A DNA stretch of 64,000 nucleotides from Vulcanimicrobiota bacterium. Lineage in GTDB: Bacteria > Vulcanimicrobiota > Xenobia > Xenobiales > JADMJV01. The notes below the pieces were generated by a model, which worked only from the letters and a program-made list of their open reading frames with translations, ran no database searches and was not told the origin of the DNA. Position numbers and translations under genes: made by a program. The stretch is taken from positions 2,724,891-2,788,890 of the forward strand of contig JBFWNU010000001.1 in assembly GCA_050250895.1 (NCBI GenBank), written 5' to 3'. Shown piece by piece: positions 26,649 to 33,240 of this stretch. How positions within the stretch are numbered: position 1 is the stretch's first letter; the number at the start of each line of letters is the position of its first letter.

Positions 26649-27472
26649 GAATCCTGGCCCTGCTGCTGCTACTGAGTTGTCAGGCCCTGGCCCAGGTGGG
26701 CAGCCTGGTATCGCTATCGGGCACCGAGGTCAAACTCACCTCGCTGCATTATCGCTTCGACCTGACCGAGCCGAAGGCTCGCCTCAGCCTCGAGGCCACT
26801 CTGGTCAATACCACGGATCGAGCGCTTGACGCCCACTACTTGCTGTTGGCTACCCAGGCGCGTCCTCCGGTCGAACTCGACGGCCGACCCTTACCCGTCG
26901 AGTCGACCTCGCGGGGCGAGTTTTACGGGCATGCCTTTCTGGTGCCCCTGTCACCCCACGAAGAGGCCCGACTGACCTCTCGCGTGACCGTGGTCGGCGA
27001 GCCGGCCTTTGATGCCGGACGGCGTGGCTACCGCTACCATCTGGTGGTGCCGGGAGATGGGACCACCGAGTTCGAGTTCGAGCTGCCCGAGTCTCTTTGG
27101 CTCGGCTCGGCCCTATCGCTCGAGTCCACCGAACCCGGCCGTTATCGGGCTCGGGCCCTGACCGGTCAGGTGGCTTTCACCGTCGGCCCCAAGGCCGACC
27201 TCGGATTCGCCCTGGCGTTGGGCGGGCCCATGGTGGTTTTCTTGCTGGCCAGTCTTATCGCTCTTCGGTGTCGACCGGCCGTGGGCCTGACTCTGGCCAT
27301 GCTGCTCGCCGGCGCGACCTATCAGGCCCTCAGTAAATCGGTCTGGCTGATCTGGTCGACCGAGCCGGCCGTCGAGGACCTGCTGAGGTGGTCGCTGGTG
27401 CTGGCGGTCACGGGGGCCGCCGTGGTCACCACCGCTGCCGGAGGAGTGCGTGAGCCTGCTGAGCGAGAGTGA
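26645..27472 (+). CDS. Hypothetical protein with signal peptide and C-terminal TM helices
   Basis: TTGA overlap with MscS stop; (M)RILALLLLLSCQALA; three hydrophobic C-terminal segments. Confidence 0.6.
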   Translation: MRILALLLLLSCQALAQVGSLVSLSGTEVKLTSLHYRFDLTEPKARLSLEATLVNTTDRALDAHYLLLATQARPPVELDGRPLPVESTSRGEFYGHAFLVPLSPHEEARLTSRVTVVGEPAFDAGRRGYRYHLVVPGDGTTEFEFELPESLWLGSALSLESTEPGRYRARALTGQVAFTVGPKADLGFALALGGPMVVFLLASLIALRCRPAVGLTLAMLLAGATYQALSKSVWLIWSTEPAVEDLLRWSLVLAVTGAAVVTTAAGGVREPAERE

Positions 27473-28148
27473 ACTCGAGCGCCGGGACGTGGTGGCCAAT
27501 TGCTCGATGAATCGGGAACGCGGTCTGGCCAGCTATGTCCGAGAACTCCGCTTCGACCCGCTCGGACAACTGGCCGCCGGGGATTGCTGGCTTGACCTTG
27601 GCTGCGGTCAGGGACGGGCTTTGCGCGAGGCAGCCGAGCGTCGCCCGGATCTCCGACTCTTCGGAGTCGACCTGGTATTGCCCGAGCCTTCGCCTGACGT
27701 TGCGTTCGTGGCGGCGGCGGCCCGCCATTATCGACCCCGCCAACGCTTCGGCCTGATCACGATGGTCCACTCACTCCACTATGTGGGCGACAAACTGGGT
27801 TTGCTCGAGCGGGCGTCCCAATGGCTCGAGGAGCGGGGCCGACTGGTGGCCCACCTCGACCTGGCCAACCTGCGCTGGCCTGACGGTCGCCGGGCCGGTC
27901 CCTGGCTGGTCGGCCAGTTGCGTCAGGGTGGTTGGCTCTATCAGGCGCGCCTTCGCCTGCTCTCGCGGGTGGGACCGGCCCCGTTCGGCCCGGAGGTTGA
28001 ATTCCTTGGGGCTGACCCCTCCGCGGGCCCGAACTTCACCGGCCAGGCTGCCGTCCACTCGGTCTACCGTCGCGCACGAACTTTCGACGAAAAACATGTA
28101 ACAAAAGAAATTTCTGGCCGACGTCAAGACCCGAATGGGCAACTTTAG
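27450..28148 (+). CDS. Class I SAM-dependent methyltransferase
   Basis: WLDLGCGQG, FGVDL, LHYVGD. Confidence 0.8.
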   Translation: MSLLSESELERRDVVANCSMNRERGLASYVRELRFDPLGQLAAGDCWLDLGCGQGRALREAAERRPDLRLFGVDLVLPEPSPDVAFVAAAARHYRPRQRFGLITMVHSLHYVGDKLGLLERASQWLEERGRLVAHLDLANLRWPDGRRAGPWLVGQLRQGGWLYQARLRLLSRVGPAPFGPEVEFLGADPSAGPNFTGQAAVHSVYRRARTFDEKHVTKEISGRRQDPNGQL

Positions 28149-28196
28149 CTCGATCTGGACGGCCTTGGATGCGATTTTGGGAACAGGTTTTCCCGG

Positions 28197-28224
28197 TTGA
28201 CATCGTCTTCTGGATGGATATAAT
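28197..28224 (+). promoter_or_regulatory. Consensus sigma70 promoter driving the non-coding unit
   Basis: TTGACA (28197-28202)-N16-TATAAT (28219-28224). Confidence 0.85.
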
Positions 28225-28230
28225 CAAAAT

Positions 28231-29308
28231 CGTTCCGACCACGGAGCCGCCCCGAATCAGCGTGAGTTCGGTGGGGTCTTACACCCCCAGACGGAATGTC
28301 TAAAGGGTAAGCGTTGGGCGAAGACGACATCGCACCCCCGGCGCCCCGGCCGGTCTCCAGGGCAAGGCTCGACTCGGGCCCTAGAACCCTCGCGAGGTTC
28401 GTCCGGCTCCCGAGAATCGAGAGGTCTGGTGCTGGTAGGTATGGCGGCCAGACAGCGGAACACTCAATTGCCGCGGCGCTCCACGATGCCGAAAGAGAGT
28501 GACTTGAGAACCGGTGGTCCGGTTTACGGTGGCAAACCCACCGGCGGCGCTGCTCGAATGCCGTGACAGAGGCGTCTGTCGAACGCGAGCAGGGTAGCTC
28601 TCCACCATAGAGAGCCTGAAGCCTCGATAAGGATTTCGGGGCGAGGCCCGAGACCCAGGCCGGAACCGTGAGGGTAAAGGCTGCCGCTAGTCGGCAGTGC
28701 CGGAGCAGGTCGAAAACGGGAGTCTGGTGCAGGTGAGGTGGCGGCCAGACACGGAGTCGCTCAGGCCGTAAAGAGCGAGGGTTGCGCTCAAACCATAGAA
28801 GCGCCCAGAGCCGACTGGTTAAAACGGGAGTCGTCGCAACGACTTAAGCCGACGGGTCGTGGAGTGCCCGAGGGTTGGAAATCTCGCGCCTGACGTGAGA
28901 ACGTCGAATAGCGAGCGCGGAACTGCTCGAGTGCCGTGGGGGGTGACCGCCAGAAAAGCGAGCAGGGGTAGCATGCATACCTGAGATATGCGCAGCGCTT
29001 CGTCTGAAGACATTCGAAGCGAGGCCCGACGCTCTTGCCGGAACCGTGAGGGGAAAGGCCGACTGGATTCGTCCAGTTCGGTGCCGGTCAAGGCGGACCA
29101 CGGGAGCCTGGTGCAGGAGAGGCGGCGGCCAGGCAGCGGAGCTATCGCTTGCCGCGACGACCACTAATCGTCGAAAGAGATAGACAGCAGATGTCTCGAC
29201 TGCCTAACAATGAGACGACCCTCCGCTTCGGCGAAGGGACCCCGACGCCTGAGTGGTGGCGGTCGGGAACCGAGAGGCGCTCCCTGGCAGGGCGCCTCTT
29301 TCCTTTTT
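28231..29308 (+). ncRNA. Candidate large (~1.07 kb) structured non-coding RNA with internally repeated modules; family not recognised
   Basis: No credible ORF; bounded by promoter and terminator; dense hairpins; three copies of a stem+pseudoknot module and two copies of a multibranch module with compensatory base changes. Confidence 0.8.
29272..29308 (+). terminator. Intrinsic terminator
   Basis: GAGAGGCGCTC-CCTGGCA-GGGCGCCTCTT followed by TCCTTTTT. Confidence 0.8.
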
Positions 29309-29410
29309 CCGGGGGGCGCGTGGGAGTGGTGGAAATCGCCAGGTGCAGTAGGCGTGGATGCTTAGCTGCGGGCGCTTTGGAACTTTGGGGTCGGGGCTGA
29401 CGAGACAGAG

Positions 29411-29686
29411 ATGGGACTAGCGTTGCGGTTTGCCGGACGGCCGCTGCTTTTTCGGAAGCTGGTGGGCTTGGACGGAGGATGCACGCTGGACGGGATCGCG
29501 GATTTGCAGAACGCGATTCGCGAGGAGTTGGGGTTCGGAGAGCCTGTCGTGGTCCCGGACCGTGGGGCTACCTTCTTTGCCACCGTGGGGATGCCGTTTA
29601 CGCTACATCCGGAGGCCCAGTTCCACGAGGTTCAGCTGCGAAAGCTGAAGGATATTCGGTCAAAGTTCCCGCTGGTTGAGCGGTGA
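29411..29686 (+). CDS. Small hypothetical protein
   Basis: 91-aa ORF with ATG filling the gap before the convergent mqnD; no recognisable motif. Confidence 0.35.
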   Translation: MGLALRFAGRPLLFRKLVGLDGGCTLDGIADLQNAIREELGFGEPVVVPDRGATFFATVGMPFTLHPEAQFHEVQLRKLKDIRSKFPLVER

Positions 29687-29757
29687 CGCAATCTGTGCCG
29701 ACTTGGCTTGGTCGGACCCTTCCACCTCCGCGTTAAAACTCCAGCAAGCACCCCCGG

Positions 29758-30591
29758 TCAGGCGGTGACGAAGTCGACCTCGATCGAACGGGGGATGATG
29801 CCGGCCGAGTGGCCTCGCGAGAGCAGTTCACGCACGGCGGCGCGGCCGGCCTGACCGAAGTCGAGAGTCGTGTCGTTGACGTACATCTCGACGAAGCGGT
29901 CGCAGGTGTCCTTGTCGAGCCCTCGGCCCCACTGCAGAGCGTAGTCCAGGGCCTCGTCGCGGTGGTCGAGGCCGTAGCGGATGGAGCGGTCGAGGATGTC
30001 GGCGACCTGGGCGATGCGTTCGGGGCCCAGCGAGCGGCGCACGATGGTCACTCCCAGGGGCAGAGGCAGCCCGGTCTGCTCTTGCCACCATTGGCCCAGG
30101 TCGACCAGTAGCTCGAGGCCTTCGGCGGCATAGGTCAACTGGCCCTCGTGGATGACCAAACCGGCACTGGCCTCACCCGAGCGGACCGTCTCGAGGATTT
30201 GGTCGAAGGGAACCACTTTGTAGGGGAAGTCTCCGGCGTAGAGGCGGGCTACCAGGAAGGCCGTGGTCAGCTCGCCGGGCACGGCTATCGGGCCGGCAAA
30301 GGCCTCTTCCGCCTCGACCCCGGGGCGGGTCACGAAGATCGGGCCGTAACCCTGGCCCAGGCTGGCCCCCGCCGCCAGCAAGGCATAGTCGTCGGCCAGG
30401 TGGGCATAGGCATGCAGAGAGACGGCCGTGACGTCGAGCTTTTGCTCGAAGGCCCACTCGTTGAGGGTCTGGATGTCCTCCATGACGTGCTCGAATTCGA
30501 ACTCGCCCATGTCGATGCGCCGCTGCGCGGTGGCGCAGAACATGAAGGCGTCGTCAGGGTCGGGGCTGTGACCTACGCGAATCAGGGTCAC
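29758..30591 (-). CDS. mqnD: 1,4-dihydroxy-6-naphthoate synthase (futalosine menaquinone pathway)
   Basis: GHSPDPDDAFMF, DIQTLN, G.GYGP, PGELTTA, IHEGQLTY, LPLPLG, MYVN. Confidence 0.92.
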   Translation of the reverse strand: MTLIRVGHSPDPDDAFMFCATAQRRIDMGEFEFEHVMEDIQTLNEWAFEQKLDVTAVSLHAYAHLADDYALLAAGASLGQGYGPIFVTRPGVEAEEAFAGPIAVPGELTTAFLVARLYAGDFPYKVVPFDQILETVRSGEASAGLVIHEGQLTYAAEGLELLVDLGQWWQEQTGLPLPLGVTIVRRSLGPERIAQVADILDRSIRYGLDHRDEALDYALQWGRGLDKDTCDRFVEMYVNDTTLDFGQAGRAAVRELLSRGHSAGIIPRSIEVDFVTA

Positions 30592-32675
30592 GTGGGCTGG
30601 TCCTTGGTCAGGCCCGTCTTCTCGGGGCCCGACCGAGCCTTCTCGTCGCGCACGATGTTGAGGTTCATGCGCGGTTTGGTGAGATAGGTGTTTTGCTTCT
30701 CTTGCACCGACAGTTCAAAGTTGGAGGTGAACACCAGCGAGTCGGTGGGGCAAGCCTCGGTGCACAAGCCGCAATAGCAGCAACGGGCCAGATCGATGGA
30801 GTAGATCTCGGGGTATTCCCAGCCCTCGTCGTTTTCAGGCGAGGCCAGGTGAATGCAGCTGTCGGGACAGGCGTCGACGCAAACCCCGCAACCCACGCAC
30901 ATTTCGGCCGCGCAGCCGTAACAGCGCTTGCCCTCGCGGCGGGCCATGTCGAGCGAGAAGCCCAGGTCAAGCTCGTCGAAGGTCTGAATGCGCACCTCCC
31001 CCGGAATCTTCGGCATCGGCACTTGATAGTTCATCCGCCGGAAGGGCTTCTGCTTGGGCTCTTTGGACCAGGGTCGCGGGTCGACGAAAGCGCTCTCGGG
31101 CGGGCTCTCGACCTCACCCAATCCGGCGCGCCGCGAGACCACTCCCGAACTCAGGGCCGGAGCCGTGCCGTCGACGTAGGGAGTGACGTGCAGCTCAGCG
31201 TGGCCCGACTTCTCATAGCCGTAGAGAAAGGGAAAGCTGTCGGGGCAGCAGTCGTATTTTCTGGCGATGCCGATGCACACCGCATCGGCCATGCCGATGG
31301 CTTCGATGATGGTCGAAACCTTGGCCACGTCGCCGCAAGCCCACACGCCCTCGCGAGTGGTCTTGCCCTGTTCGTCAACCCGGATGGTGCCGTTGCGGTT
31401 GACCTTGATGTCGTCAGGCAGCCAGGGTATGTCGACCATCCGGCCCAGGGCCGTAATGATCATTCCGCACTCCAGAAGATATTCCGAGCCGGCGATGGGG
31501 CGGGGACTGCGCCGGCCCGAGCGGTCTTTCTCGCCCAGGCGATTCTTGATCACTTCCAGGCCGACCAGCTGGCCGTCTTGGATAATGATACGGTGGGGCG
31601 ACGTCAGCCACTCGAGGTGGATGCCCTCCTCCTCGCCATCTTCAATCTCTTCTTCTTCAGAAGGCATCTCGCGGCGGGTGCGCCGATAGATCATGACCAC
31701 CTCGGCCCCCATCCGGCGACAGGTGCGAGCGCAGTCAAAGCCGGTGTTGCCGCCCCCAACCACCACGACCTTTTTGGGCACTTCGGTGAGGCGGCCGCGA
31801 ATCTGCTCTTCGAGAAAGTCCTCGCCGTAATAGACGTAGGGCTTCTCTTCCGAGGCCAATCCCAGATGGTACGGCTTCCAGGCCCCGGCTGCGATGATGA
31901 CCTCGTGATGCCGCTTCTCGAGCTCTTCGAGGGTGACGTCGTTGCCCACTTCTACCGACAGGTGCAGGGTGATACCGTCGAGCTTGTGGATCCGTTCCAT
32001 CTCGCCGTTGACCACGTCGCGGGGCAGGCGATAGATGGGGATGCCCAAAGTAAGAAAGCCTCCGGGAATATCGCGTTGCTCGTAGATGTGGCACTCGAAG
32101 CCCCACGAGCGCAGCAGCATGGCGCATTGGTAGCCGGCCGGGCCGCCGCCGATGATGCCGATGGTCTTGCCGTGGAGCGGCTGACTGCAGCAGTACTTTT
32201 CATACGAGAAACGCTCGGACTCGGGCAGGTTGGCCTCCCAGTCGGAGTATACTCGCTTGAGCTTGCGAATGGCGATGGGCTCGGGCCCGGTAAAACCGCG
32301 CGAGCACTGTTTTTCGCAGGGGGCCGGGCAGACGCGGCCCAGGGTAGCCACGAACGGGTAGGTCTTGCGCAGCATCTCCATGCCTTCGCGCCAGTTGCCT
32401 TCCCCGGCCAGGGTCACGTAACCGCGGGCGTCGGTGTGGGCCGGACAGCCGGTGGTGCAGGGCGCCCAGCGGGTGCCGGGGTACCAGTCGCTCTTGTTCT
32501 TGATCGATTCGGGACTGTGGAAATCGACCATCCTCAGCATTCCGCGCGAGTTGGCCGGAATCGACTCGTTGCGAACCAACGGATAGTTGATGGTCACCGA
32601 CGGTTGACGAAAATGTTTGTAGGTGACCGACATTCCTCCGAGGATGGCCCGAAGGTTGTCGAGGATGGTTGGCAT
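30588..32675 (-). CDS. NuoI-like 2x[4Fe-4S] protein with inserted GltD/NfnB-like FAD/NAD(P)H oxidoreductase module
   Basis: NuoI-like N-terminus (GMSVTYKHF..VTINYP..SRG); GltD-like APC..GCP, GRVCPAPCE..C, GGGPAG, GGGNTGFDCAR, YRR; C-terminal CVGCGVCVDACP and CCYCGLCTEACP. Confidence 0.85.
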   Translation of the reverse strand: MPTILDNLRAILGGMSVTYKHFRQPSVTINYPLVRNESIPANSRGMLRMVDFHSPESIKNKSDWYPGTRWAPCTTGCPAHTDARGYVTLAGEGNWREGMEMLRKTYPFVATLGRVCPAPCEKQCSRGFTGPEPIAIRKLKRVYSDWEANLPESERFSYEKYCCSQPLHGKTIGIIGGGPAGYQCAMLLRSWGFECHIYEQRDIPGGFLTLGIPIYRLPRDVVNGEMERIHKLDGITLHLSVEVGNDVTLEELEKRHHEVIIAAGAWKPYHLGLASEEKPYVYYGEDFLEEQIRGRLTEVPKKVVVVGGGNTGFDCARTCRRMGAEVVMIYRRTRREMPSEEEEIEDGEEEGIHLEWLTSPHRIIIQDGQLVGLEVIKNRLGEKDRSGRRSPRPIAGSEYLLECGMIITALGRMVDIPWLPDDIKVNRNGTIRVDEQGKTTREGVWACGDVAKVSTIIEAIGMADAVCIGIARKYDCCPDSFPFLYGYEKSGHAELHVTPYVDGTAPALSSGVVSRRAGLGEVESPPESAFVDPRPWSKEPKQKPFRRMNYQVPMPKIPGEVRIQTFDELDLGFSLDMARREGKRCYGCAAEMCVGCGVCVDACPDSCIHLASPENDEGWEYPEIYSIDLARCCYCGLCTEACPTDSLVFTSNFELSVQEKQNTYLTKPRMNLNIVRDEKARSGPEKTGLTKDQPT

Positions 32676-32825
32676 GAGAGTGCCCTTTCTCCCCCTGCAG
32701 TTATAGACTTTTCCAGGGTTCGCTGGGTTTCCCTTCGTCTTGAAGTCGAGCCTTCCTACTGTTGTCAGCCACGCAAAAAGACGGCCCGAGGACCGCCTTT
32801 GCTAGTTCTGACGACTGTGATCGTT

Positions 32826-33077
32826 CTAGAGGTGGCGCGCGATGGCGGCCTGGGTCAAGGCCTCGCCGACCCGCAGTTCGGGACTCACGGCACGCAGATT
32901 CCGGGTGGCCTGGCCGAGTTCGAGGCTGCTCACTTTGGGCAAGAAGAGGTTGCCGGGGTCGCTCTCGCGGCGGGCGACCAGCAAGGCGAAGTTGAGAGGG
33001 TAACGTTTTTCTTCGACCAGTTTCTGCGTCTTCTGAGCGATCTTGTCGGCATACTTCAGATAGTCGGTTCTCGTCAT
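32826..33077 (-). CDS. Small hypothetical protein
   Basis: GGGAGG upstream of ATG 33077; 83 aa MTRTDYLKYADKIAQ... Confidence 0.55.
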   Translation of the reverse strand: MTRTDYLKYADKIAQKTQKLVEEKRYPLNFALLVARRESDPGNLFLPKVSSLELGQATRNLRAVSPELRVGEALTQAAIARHL

Positions 33078-33240
33078 CTTTTTGTGGCCTCCCGCTGGTG
33101 ATGTTGAAATCATAATCTTTGGTCGTTTCCGGAGGGTTGCGAGGGCTTTCCAGATATTGCCAGATTGTTAAAATGTTTGATTTTTCATGTTCACGATTCG
33201 CATCCTGAGAACCGGTCGAAAGTTTGTTATACTCTTTATT

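What the first reader, a model, noticed from the sequence alone, without database searches (positions are those of the whole stretch)
28197..29308. Stand-alone ~1.07-kb structured non-coding transcript, candidate novel giant ncRNA
Seen: a consensus TTGACA-N16-TATAAT promoter, then about 1075 nt with no convincing ORF in an otherwise densely coding region, then a GC hairpin with a U-rich tail. The sequence is packed with helices. The first helix (CGTTCCG 28231-37 / CGGAATG 28292-98) begins at the expected start site, and there are GNRA/UUCG-type loops (GTGA, GCAA, TTCG). Known: stand-alone RNAs of this size class include GOLLD, ROOL, OLE and HEARO. I do not see the signature motifs of rRNA, tmRNA, RNase P or group I/II introns. 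Inference: an abundant, independently transcribed large RNA, possibly a new class.
Basis: partly seen in the sequence, partly recalled or inferred. Interest (0 to 1): 0.93.

Follow-up and report, generated by a model that had tools for sequence, protein, structure and literature searches.

The report
New large modular RNA family, Xenobia
This is a real gene for a roughly 1.1-kb non-coding RNA built from three repeated, heavily folded modules; it belongs to a multi-copy RNA family, found so far only in a little-studied bacterial lineage, that matches no described RNA family and has no known function.

Summary
A 12-of-12 sigma-70 promoter (28197-28224) and a hairpin plus T-run (29272-29310) bracket about 1076 nt with no coding signal.

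It is one of six paralogous RNA genes in this 9.5-Mb genome, each with its own promoter and terminator and unrelated neighbours. Complete homologs of 991-1647 nt occur in related MAGs titled Vulcanimicrobiota / Candidatus Xenobia. A covariance model finds the family in 21 of 151 genomes of the phylum, all in three large-genome families.

The RNA is a head-to-tail array of three homologous modules (28283-28504, 28559-28780, 28932-29186). Each module has a multi-helix junction, GNRA-capped hairpins, a long-loop hairpin and pseudoknots. Covariation is strong: 94.5% of cells paired and 37 of 40 pairs compensatory across 46 module copies.

Contigs of RNA libraries from three studies lie on the gene. 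32 of 50 strongly matching metagenome contigs are transcript-sized and begin at the predicted 5' end.

No Rfam family matches, and five literature searches found no description.

Its proposed first helix is not.

Function is unknown. My best guess is a multivalent structural scaffold.

The parts
28197..28202 (+). -35 hexamer of the promoter
   Evidence: 6 of 6 matches. A -35 of the same type stands before 5 of 5 other paralogs. It was also found before 10 of the 11 relatives' copies whose upstream DNA is held; the exception, L031 (= L009), has a 19-nt spacer outside the pattern used (repeated).
28219..28224 (+). -10 hexamer of the promoter
   Evidence: 6 of 6 matches, spacer 16.
28231..29306 (+). 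Predicted primary transcript, about 1076 nt. The 5' end is inferred from the -10 hexamer, the 3' end from the terminator.
   Evidence: homology to the paralogs starts just after the promoter and ends at the terminator. RNA-library contigs lie at 28258-28719, 28690-29278 (X5), 28361-29288 (X17), and 28251-28505 and 28837-29127 (X20).
28232..28271 (+). Two 5' hairpins: 28232-28236 with 28243-28247, and 28252-28256 with 28267-28271
   Evidence: 97.8% of 179 cells paired and 6 of 10 pairs changed on both sides. Covariation 0.422 against 0.154 shuffled and at most 0.080 slid.
28283..28504 (+). Module 1, the most diverged copy. Includes the long-loop hairpin 28425-28452 and the 3' pseudoknot 28455-28501.
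   Evidence: model R1, 47.1 bits, E 1.4e-15, full model length. Coordinates of the helices.
28544..28780 (+). Module 2. The upstream pseudoknot starts near 28544; the core modelled by R1 is 28559-28780. The long-loop hairpin is 28723-28749.
   Evidence: repeats D1, D2, D4 and D9 at spacings of 373-384 nt to module 3; 81.4 bits, E 1.7e-26. Coordinates.
28781..28916 (+). Linker between modules 2 and 3. Holds an extra copy of the 11-nt-loop hairpin (28784-28804) and a GNRA hairpin.
   Evidence: partial R1 match to model positions 39-59, 10.7 bits, E 0.00054. The stretch is conserved in all six paralogs.
28917..28965 (+). Module 3, 5' pseudoknot. Stem S1 is 28917-28920 with 28934-28937. Stem S2 is 28923-28927 with 28961-28965. 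A GNRA hairpin lies at 28939-28950.
   Evidence: S2 and the hairpin carry compensatory changes. S1 is 100% paired but shows only one-sided change.
28966..29027 (+). Module 3 junction. The closing stem is 28966-28968 with 29025-29027. Hairpin H3 (28971-28991) has a conserved 13-nt loop. Hairpin H4 is 28996-29021.
   Evidence: helices 4-6 are 100% paired. H3 has 2 of 4 and H4 2 of 7 pairs changed on both sides. On 46 modules all 4 and all 7 pairs are.
29030..29095 (+). Module 3 variable arm: outer stem 29030-29032 with 29093-29095, inner stem 29038-29041 with 29084-29087, enclosing GNRA and UUCG-type hairpins. In relatives the arm is longer.
29107..29133 (+). Module 3 long-loop hairpin H8: a 5-bp stem with a near-invariant purine-rich loop. 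It is the most conserved element of the family and the basis of the search pattern.
   Evidence: 2 of 5 pairs compensatory; 5 of 5 compensatory, 99.1% paired; the pattern hits 17 of 17 homologs.
29136..29183 (+). Module 3, 3' pseudoknot. S1 is 29136-29139 with 29152-29155, S2 is 29142-29146 with 29179-29183, and the inner hairpin is 29156-29172. An A-rich linker precedes the 3' strand of S2.
   Evidence: S1 is 92.5% paired in 161 cells and 2 of 4 pairs covary, in columns the model treated as unpaired. Searches cover S2 and the hairpin.
29187..29271 (+). Variable 3' tail
   Evidence: length and sequence differ between subfamilies.
29272..29310 (+). Intrinsic terminator: hairpin 29272-29300 followed by a T-run
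   Evidence: All 6 paralogs and the 12 complete relatives end in such a hairpin, with different stem sequences.

Best explanation
Window 28231-29306 (+) is a stand-alone gene for a trans-acting, folded, non-coding RNA of about 1.08 kb. It belongs to a family that Rfam 15 does not hold and that my literature searches did not find.

The family's members are tandem arrays of one ornate module of about 230-380 nt. There are three copies here and four to five in a sister family. Each array sits between a strong sigma-70 promoter and an intrinsic terminator.

Each module folds into:
- a small multi-helix junction;
- GNRA-capped hairpins;
- a hairpin with a near-invariant purine-rich loop;
- pseudoknots with an A-rich linker.

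The third module is the conserved core. Modules 1 and 2 are older, diverged copies.

Shown here: the transcription-unit anatomy, the absence of coding signal, the base-paired structure, six paralogs, restriction to large-genome families of the Xenobia lineage of Vulcanimicrobiota (Eremiobacterota/WPS-2), and presence in RNA libraries.

Inferred, with about 0.3 confidence for this step alone: the RNA works as a multivalent structural scaffold. Its repeated modules would either bind several copies of one partner or pack against each other as a pseudo-oligomer within one chain. That would be the single-chain counterpart of the homo-oligomers formed by OLE, ROOL and GOLLD.
For: TRANSCRIPTION UNIT
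- Perfect promoter and a terminator.
- Homology among the six paralogs runs only from promoter to terminator.
- 12 further complete homologs of 991-1647 nt in relatives end in a terminator; a TTGACA-type -35 was found before 10 of the 11 with upstream DNA held.

NOT CODING
- Longest ORF is 106 aa, against 137 +/- 44 in shuffles.
- Variable columns by codon phase: 194, 199, 194 (p = 0.97).
- Indels that are multiples of 3: 8 of 31 and 7 of 38.

STRUCTURE
- Module 3 in 18 sequences: 96.6% of 944 cells paired against 87.7 +/- 0.6 shuffled. 23 of 53 pairs changed on both sides against 12.3 +/- 1.7 (0 of 500 shuffles as high). Slid controls give 32-46% paired.
- 46 module copies aligned to model R1: 94.5% paired, 37 of 40 pairs compensatory, covariation 0.560 against 0.206 shuffled and at most 0.089 slid.
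- A pseudoknot stem that was not in the model: 92.5% paired, 2 of 4 pairs covary.
- G-U pairs occur. On the other strand they would be mismatches, so the plus strand is the folded one.

MODULARITY
- R1 matches W three times at full model length: 47, 81 and 222 bits.
- All 14 R1 hits in the genome lie inside the six paralogs.
- Arrays of 4-5 hits follow a TTGACA-N17 promoter in family f2.

DISTRIBUTION
- 21 of 151 genomes of the phylum, counting G000: f1 14 of 15, f2 5 of 5, f5 1 of 1 without G000. None in the other 18 families searched, for example f3 0 of 19 and f15 0 of 71.

RNA EVIDENCE
- Contigs of RNA libraries from three studies lie on the gene. Word depths are 3223 and 2572 (X5) and 358 (X17); X20 has low-depth pieces. 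The DNA run has depth 8.7.
- RNA contigs of two studies stop at 29278 and 29288 without a loose end, while a DNA contig goes on. The tool rates this a weak hint.
- Of 50 strongly matching metagenome contigs, 32 are 1113-1896 nt long and begin at model positions 3-30 with at most 9 unaligned bases. 9 carry more than 100 nt of 5' flank.

STAND-ALONE
- No protein family recurs next to 3 or more of 18 loci, among 109 flanking ORFs.
- Neighbours are unrelated housekeeping genes.
- The downstream gene is convergent at 4 of 6 paralogs.
Against: - No experiment or read-level data define the ends, the strand or the abundance. Contigs cannot show these, and an RNA library can hold DNA.
- I cannot show that the transcript-sized metagenome contigs come from RNA. 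That is inferred from where they begin.
- The A3 alignment was fitted to the model, which inflates pair counts. A1 and A4 were not fitted.
- The sequences are related, so shuffle controls overstate significance.
- Nothing bears directly on function: no partner gene, no ligand, no phenotype.
- The scaffold step rests on analogy and on the repeat architecture alone.
- Rfam and the paper library are finite, so a description elsewhere is possible.
Confidence: 0.85

Rival explanations
1. Protein-sequestering decoy of the CsrB/RsmZ type. The repeated modules and the several paralogs would present many copies of one loop motif that titrates an RNA-binding regulator.
For: Six paralogs. Tandem repeats within each RNA. 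Recurrent hairpins with conserved loops: the H3-type loop occurs in modules 2 and 3 and again in the linker, and the H8 loop is near invariant. Two promoter types among the paralogs, with and without upstream DnaA-box-like sites, would fit differential regulation.
Against: Known decoys are short, with simple stem-loops. Here whole junctions and pseudoknots covary and are conserved, far more than a loop display needs. No candidate protein was identified and no protein family recurs beside the loci.
Confidence: 0.2
2. A catalytic RNA, or the RNA subunit of an enzyme, with module 3 as the active core.
For: Module 3 has long stretches of invariant unpaired nucleotides next to covarying helices and pseudoknots. 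This pattern is typical of ribozyme cores, a comparison I make from general knowledge rather than from a call.
Against: No match to any ribozyme model in Rfam. RNase P RNA and tmRNA are present elsewhere in the genome. No substrate or partner gene is indicated. Six paralogs are unusual for a housekeeping ribozyme.
Confidence: 0.08
3. A selfish or mobile repeat, or a decayed remnant of one (retroelement RNA, insertion-sequence end, satellite), rather than a cellular RNA gene.
For: Several copies per genome. Two copies lie 5 kb apart at 97% identity. One weak, below-cut-off transposase-family hit lies between them.
Against: Copies are 59-88% identical yet keep their base pairs through compensatory change. 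Each has its own promoter and terminator, and homology stops there. No terminal repeats flank W. No transposase, reverse transcriptase or integrase recurs beside the loci. No match in viral contigs.
Confidence: 0.03
4. A cis-acting leader or array of riboswitches that controls a downstream gene.
For: The tandem arrangement of similar folded domains recalls tandem riboswitches. A 91-aa ORF starts 105 nt downstream of W on the same strand.
Against: A strong terminator ends every copy. The downstream gene is convergent at 4 of 6 paralogs. The downstream genes are unrelated. The 91-aa ORF has no Pfam match.
Confidence: 0.02

Closest known systems
OLE RNA (ornate, large, extremophilic; Rfam RF01071)
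   Same: Large stand-alone bacterial ncRNA with an intricate covarying structure and long conserved unpaired stretches. Function is unresolved and the taxonomic range is narrow.
   Different: No match to the OLE model in this genome, with the caveat that the tool's control genomes also gave no OLE hit, and none in the window. OLE is about 600 nt and forms a homodimer (abstract of 10.1101/2024.12.08.627333). From my own recall, it is single-copy, found in Firmicutes and flanked by its partner genes. Here the RNA is about 1.1-1.6 kb, internally repeated, has six copies and has no conserved neighbour.
GOLLD and ROOL RNAs
   Same: Giant, ornate RNAs of unknown function. By cryo-EM they form RNA-only homo-oligomeric cages (abstract). 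This is the precedent for reading repeated RNA folds as architecture.
   Different: No match to ROOL (same caveat on controls) or to any other Rfam family. Those RNAs are often phage-borne and near tRNA genes, which I recall rather than tested. Here no tRNA lies within about 1.5 kb of any of the 6 paralogs, the motif has no hit in viral contigs, and the repeats are within one chain rather than between chains.
tmRNA
   Same: A stable RNA that holds a string of several H-type pseudoknots.
   Different: A normal tmRNA lies elsewhere in the genome (C3:741155-741536, 180.6 bits). ARAGORN finds no tmRNA in the six loci. There is no conserved reading frame.
CsrB / RsmX-Y-Z type decoy RNAs
   Same: Several paralogous genes per genome. 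Internally repetitive RNAs with their own strong promoters and terminators that act in trans.
   Different: Those RNAs are 100-400 nt and are made of simple GGA-loop hairpins, which I recall rather than tested. Here the units are 230-380 nt with junctions and pseudoknots that covary.

Membership tests
Any Rfam 15 family (including OLE, ROOL, GOLLD, HEARO, raiA, RNase P, tmRNA, 6S, group I/II introns, riboswitches) | Match to the family's covariance model at or above its gathering score | tested here: not met
   0 matches in the 64-kb window. In 28000-29500 at E up to 10 there are only three chance hits to eukaryotic families, at 11.7-18.7 bits, far below their cut-offs. 0 matches in 14 homologous loci totalling 91.6 kb.
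OLE | Match to RF01071 anywhere in the genome | tested here: not met
   0 matches. The tool's 14 control genomes also gave none, so this run alone is weak. Searches cover the locus itself.
ROOL / GOLLD | Match to the model; frequent phage or tRNA neighbourhood | tested here: not met
   ROOL model: 0 matches (same caveat). GOLLD was covered only through the all-family scans. No tRNA in the six loci. The family motif is absent from viral contigs.
tmRNA | tRNA-like domain plus tag reading frame | tested here: not met
   ARAGORN finds none in loci L001-L006. The genome's tmRNA is elsewhere.
RNase P RNA | Match to the bacterial RNase P model | tested here: not met
   The only match is at C1:1125467-1125845, 305.3 bits. 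That is not this locus.
Group II intron | Intron domain models; reverse-transcriptase ORF | tested here: not met
   The D1-D4 model RF01998 has 0 matches in the genome. No long conserved ORF. No hit.
Cis-regulatory leader / riboswitch | Same-strand downstream gene reached without a constitutive terminator; conserved gene association | tested here: not met
   Terminator at every copy. Convergent downstream gene at 4 of 6 paralogs. No recurrent neighbour.
CsrB/RsmZ-type decoy | Many copies of a short protein-binding loop motif; a cognate RNA-binding protein | tested here: inconclusive
   Repeated conserved loops exist, but no partner protein was sought or found.

The most novel reading that the evidence does not exclude
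This would be the first natural giant RNA built by tandem multiplication of one ornate fold. The array has 3 to 5 modules in genomes, and possibly 6 or more in related environmental contigs of 3-4 kb. It would fold into a pseudo-symmetric, RNA-only architecture within a single chain. It would be expressed at stable-RNA levels from several genes, many of them preceded by paired DnaA-box-like sites, which would tie the particle to the replication or growth state of large-genome Xenobia.
Probability: 0.2. Interest if true: 0.95.

Novelty: categorically new. Interest (0 to 1): 0.88.

Why it matters
Large, intricately folded bacterial RNAs are rare, and each class found so far (RNase P, tmRNA, OLE, GOLLD, ROOL, raiA) has opened new biology or new structural principles.

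This family has several features that make it worth study:
- It is longer than those classes.
- Covariation support is strong.
- It is apparently abundant in wastewater RNA libraries.
- It comes from a phylum with almost no cultured members.
- Its design is a tandem array of one module in several paralogous genes. I did not find that design described for the classes compared here.

It offers a well-defined target for cryo-EM and for partner hunting. It is also a natural test of whether internal repetition can replace the homo-oligomerisation seen in OLE, ROOL and GOLLD.

Tried and rejected
FOLDING ENERGY. Single-sequence z-scores are -1.97 (plus strand) and -2.10 (minus strand). They do not discriminate and I dropped them as evidence.

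RFAM. Scans at gathering and at E up to 10 found nothing real.

OTHER NEGATIVE SEARCHES
- tRNA neighbourhood: none.
- Viral contigs: 0 matches.
- Conserved neighbour genes: none among 109 flank ORFs.

The pairing 28231-37 with 28292-98 is rejected.

K-TURN IDEA. Reading by eye, I considered a kink-turn in the 3' pseudoknot. I rejected it because the position that would have to form a sheared pair covaries as a Watson-Crick pair (A1 pair 428-442).

FLANKS IN THE RNA RUNS. The three RNA runs have no cover on the flanks 27400-28218 and 29311-30100, while DNA run X6 covers 27400-29016 in one 5334-nt contig.

X20 was laid and gave only low-depth pieces plus pieces of related RNAs.

SEVEN PATTERN HITS IN OTHER PHYLA. 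L030, L037, L039, L040, L041, L043 and L045 have no nhmmer match. I treat them as chance.

LIMITS OF THE DISTRIBUTION. The pattern used is specific to module 3 of family f1. The covariance model was run only inside the phylum. The family's absence elsewhere is therefore not shown.

LITERATURE
- 0 papers hold Xenobia together with 'noncoding RNA'.
- None of the 12 listed GOLLD/ROOL papers mentions Eremiobacterota.
- One search found 0 papers.
- I read only listings, plus the outline (abstract and introduction) of 10.1101/2024.12.08.627333.
- Supplements were closed and may hold RNA lists I could not see.

TOOL PROBLEMS
- One search failed on a script error of mine and was repeated.
- One search returned no answer, but its files were there and were read.
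- Complex prediction, structure prediction and the large protein-homology, representative-library and Atlas searches were not used, because there is no protein to test. Pfam scans of neighbouring ORFs were run.
Full report
WHAT IS AT THE COORDINATES. The consensus scan finds one promoter-like site in 27500-30000: TTGACA-N16-TATAAT at 28197-28224, 12 of 12 matches, against 0.3 +/- 0.5 expected. It also finds a hairpin of 11 pairs at 29272-29300 followed by a T-run. Terminator-like sites as a class are not enriched there (3 found, 2.2 expected). The weight of this one comes from comparison with the paralogs. Between promoter and terminator the longest ORF is 106 aa, on the minus strand. Flanking genes are ordinary. 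Upstream lie a mechanosensitive-channel protein and a methyltransferase. Downstream, on the other strand, lie a menaquinone-synthesis protein and an oxidoreductase.

IT IS ONE OF SIX GENES. BLAST of the RNA against the window's own 9.5-Mb assembly finds five more copies. Trimmed from promoter to terminator they measure 1076 (W), 1128, 1156, 1158, 1154 and 1154 nt. W is 68% identical to P2 and about 61% to P3-P6, and P3-P6 are 81-97% alike. Each copy has its own TTGAC-type promoter and its own terminator with a different stem sequence. Similarity begins just after the promoter and stops at the terminator. The neighbours are unrelated: peptidases, a NUDIX protein, an S1/P1 nuclease, a WD40 protein, a GGDEF protein and a sensor kinase. 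At 4 of the 6 copies the downstream gene is convergent. No tRNA gene lies in the six loci. Among 109 ORFs flanking 18 loci, no protein family recurs at three or more loci.

RELATIVES AND TAXON. BLAST finds matches in 11 of 41 related genomes (counting G000), all of them in the same family (f1: 10 of its 15 other genomes). A 25-letter gapped pattern from the most conserved hairpin hits 17 of 17 homologs, and in the own genome it hits only the six paralogs. Scanned over one genome for each of 185,579 species, it gives 30 stretches. Of these, 23 are true homologs by nhmmer and 7, from other phyla, are not. The true ones lie in MAGs titled Vulcanimicrobiota bacterium, Candidatus Xenobia bacterium or plain 'bacterium'. 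A few MAGs carry titles from other orders; I suspect these are mislabelled, because their RNA copies score the same as those of family-f1 handles. Vulcanimicrobiota is the phylum also called Eremiobacterota or WPS-2 (abstract listing of PMC10927679). Twelve distinct complete homologs of 991-1647 nt were extracted, each ending in a terminator; 10 of the 11 with upstream DNA held show a TTGACA-type -35, the eleventh (L031) having a 19-nt spacer that my pattern excluded.

NOT CODING. ORFs in the 18 homologs differ in strand, place and length. W's longest (106 aa) is below the mean of 200 shuffles (137 +/- 44). Variable alignment columns fall evenly on the three codon phases: 194, 199 and 194 of 341, 342 and 341 (p = 0.97), and 70, 66 and 61 in module 3 (p = 0.77). 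Only 8 of 31 (W against P2) and 7 of 38 (W against P3) indels are multiples of three.

INTERNAL ARCHITECTURE. The repeat finder shows direct repeats at spacings of 373-384 nt and 681-682 nt. I aligned the best-conserved unit from 18 sequences (A1) and drew a structure by hand from compensatory changes seen in the alignment. It has 12 helices and 53 pairs, including two pseudoknot stems.

Results on A1, which was not fitted to any structure:
- 96.6% of 944 cells form standard pairs, against 87.7 +/- 0.6 in shuffles and 32-46% when partners are slid by 1-3 columns.
- 23 of 53 pairs show changes on both sides, against 12.3 +/- 1.7 (0 of 500 shuffles reach it).
- The covariation score is 0.284, against 0.121 shuffled and 0.04-0.09 slid.

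A covariance model of this unit (R1, 263 positions, 40 pairs) matches W three times over its full length. The matches are 28283-28504 (47.1 bits), 28559-28780 (81.4 bits) and 28932-29186 (221.7 bits). All 14 of its hits in the genome fall inside the six paralogs. The RNA is therefore a tandem triplication of one module, and the third copy is under the strongest constraint.

I then aligned 46 module copies, from this genome and from family-f1 and f2 loci, to R1 (A3). There, 94.5% of 1716 cells pair, against 73.8% in shuffles. 37 of 40 pairs carry compensatory changes. The covariation score is 0.560, against 0.206 shuffled and at most 0.089 slid. That alignment is fitted to the model, which favours it. 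The slid controls and the unfitted A1 give the same answer.

THE PSEUDOKNOTS. A motif recurs at both ends of each module (seen, where I picked the instances by eye from a noisy list of 196 candidates). It consists of:
- a 4-nt strand;
- two purines;
- the 5' strand of a 5-7 bp stem;
- a short or very long loop;
- the complement of the first 4 nt;
- a small hairpin;
- an A-rich run;
- the 3' strand of the stem.

The order of strands makes it an H-type pseudoknot. The crossing stem was left unpaired in the model. Even so, in A3 it pairs in 92.5% of 161 cells, and two of its four pairs covary. The pair types are A-U 22, G-C 9, G-U 4, C-G 1 for one, and G-C 27, A-U 10, G-U 1 for the other. Its covariation score is 0.282, against 0.156 in shuffles (0 of 500 as high). 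In module 3 of W the two knots are at 28917-28965 and 29136-29183.

THE 5' END. Two local hairpins (28232-28247 and 28252-28271) are supported: 97.8% paired, 6 of 10 pairs compensatory.

DISTRIBUTION. R1 was searched in 151 genomes drawn from the phylum and matches 21 of them, counting G000. Without G000 the counts by family are:

| Family | Genomes with a match |
|---|---|
| f1 | 14 of 15 |
| f2 | 5 of 5 |
| f5 | 1 of 1 |
| f3 (2-5 Mb genomes, same order) | 0 of 19 |
| f4 | 0 of 3 |
| f15 | 0 of 71 |
| Remaining 15 families | 0 |

These are samples, and some genomes are incomplete, so I write 'not found in those searched'. In family f2 a TTGACA-N17 promoter is followed by 4-5 back-to-back module hits within about 1.3 kb. 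The number and spacing of modules therefore vary between lineages.

EVIDENCE OF RNA. The run index lists 21 runs from 9 studies that hold part of the stretch, 9 of them on record as RNA. I laid three RNA runs from three studies and one DNA run.
- X5 has contigs on 28258-28719 and 28690-29278, with word depths 3223 and 2572.
- X17 has one 928-nt contig on 28361-29288, with depth 358 and about 5% of letters different, so it comes from a relative.
- X20 has low-depth pieces.
- The DNA run has a 5334-nt contig that runs from the upstream gene into the RNA at depth 8.7.

Contigs show presence, not ends, strand or level.

The pattern scan of JGI metagenome records gives independent support. Among the 50 strong matches (200 bits or more):
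- 32 contigs are 1113-1896 nt long and begin at model positions 3-30 with at most 9 unaligned bases. 13 of them begin at position 14. Only 2 of the 32 reach a T-run at the 3' end.
- 9 have more than 100 nt of 5' flank.
- 9 start inside the RNA.

Random breaks in DNA assemblies would not cluster like this. The simplest reading is that these are assembled transcripts. I could not check what kind of library they came from.

COMPARISON WITH KNOWN RNAS. No Rfam 15 family matches the window, the locus at E up to 10 or 14 homologous loci. RNase P RNA and tmRNA are found elsewhere in the genome. The OLE, ROOL and group-II D1-D4 models find nothing in it; for OLE and ROOL the tool's control genomes were also silent. 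The pattern is absent from viral contigs. Five literature searches found no description.

The closest analogues are OLE, GOLLD and ROOL. These are large ornate RNAs of unknown function that form RNA-only homo-oligomers (abstract of 10.1101/2024.12.08.627333). The present RNA differs in four ways: it is longer, it has many copies, it has no conserved neighbourhood, and it is built of repeats within one chain.

MECHANISM. Shown: a discrete, non-coding, tightly folded RNA with repeated modules and several gene copies, each behind a strong promoter. Several homologs also have A/T-rich tracts just upstream of the -35 in otherwise G+C-rich DNA (seen, not quantified), as stable-RNA promoters often do. 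Inferred: it acts in trans as a multivalent scaffold. I put about 0.3 on that step. I put about 0.2 on the related decoy reading, about 0.08 on catalysis, and little on mobile-element or leader readings, for the reasons given under the rivals.

VERDICT. This is a real, and as far as I can tell undescribed, class of large structured RNA. The main open points are its function, its exact ends and its range outside the phylum.

Noticed in passing
Upstream of paralogs P3-P6 (L058, L059, L060) and of relatives L027, L031, L034, L042, L049, L051; none at window 27970-28235: Sites within one mismatch of the 9-mer DnaA-box consensus (consensus recalled from memory) lie mostly 90-120 nt upstream of the predicted start, often as a pair 12 nt apart. 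They occur at 10 of the 17 loci that have upstream sequence. The genome-wide density is 0.052 per kb, so about 0.014 would be expected per locus. W and P2, which have the perfect -10 hexamer, have none. This suggests two regulatory classes of the RNA genes.
   Followed up: partly
Metagenome loci L077, L082, L094, L098, L135, L152, L106, L124: Contigs of 2.1-4.1 kb with no nhmmer match to the family still carry many same-strand R1 module hits along their whole length. In L082, partial hits recur about every 550 nt. The contigs break inside the conserved hairpin motif. They look like a related family with six or more modules, possibly RNAs of 3-4 kb or longer; their source organism is unknown.
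   Followed up: partly
G000:C2:138084-139241 and 143085-144238 (L059): Paralogs P4 and P5 lie 5 kb apart on the same strand and are 97% identical, so this is a recent local duplication. Between them lie a WD40-repeat gene and an ORF with a below-cut-off transposase-family hit.
   Followed up: no
Genome-contig loci L027, L032, L036, L050, L051, L054, L056: MAGs whose record titles name Burkholderiales or Selenomonadaceae carry full-length copies of this RNA. Their scores are identical to those of family-f1 handles, so the titles are probably wrong assignments.
   Followed up: no
window 30693-33101 (+): An 802-aa ORF with no Pfam match overlaps, on the opposite strand, the 695-aa oxidoreductase gene at 30588-32675, which has strong Pfam matches. 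It is probably a spurious ORF of G+C-rich DNA.
   Followed up: no
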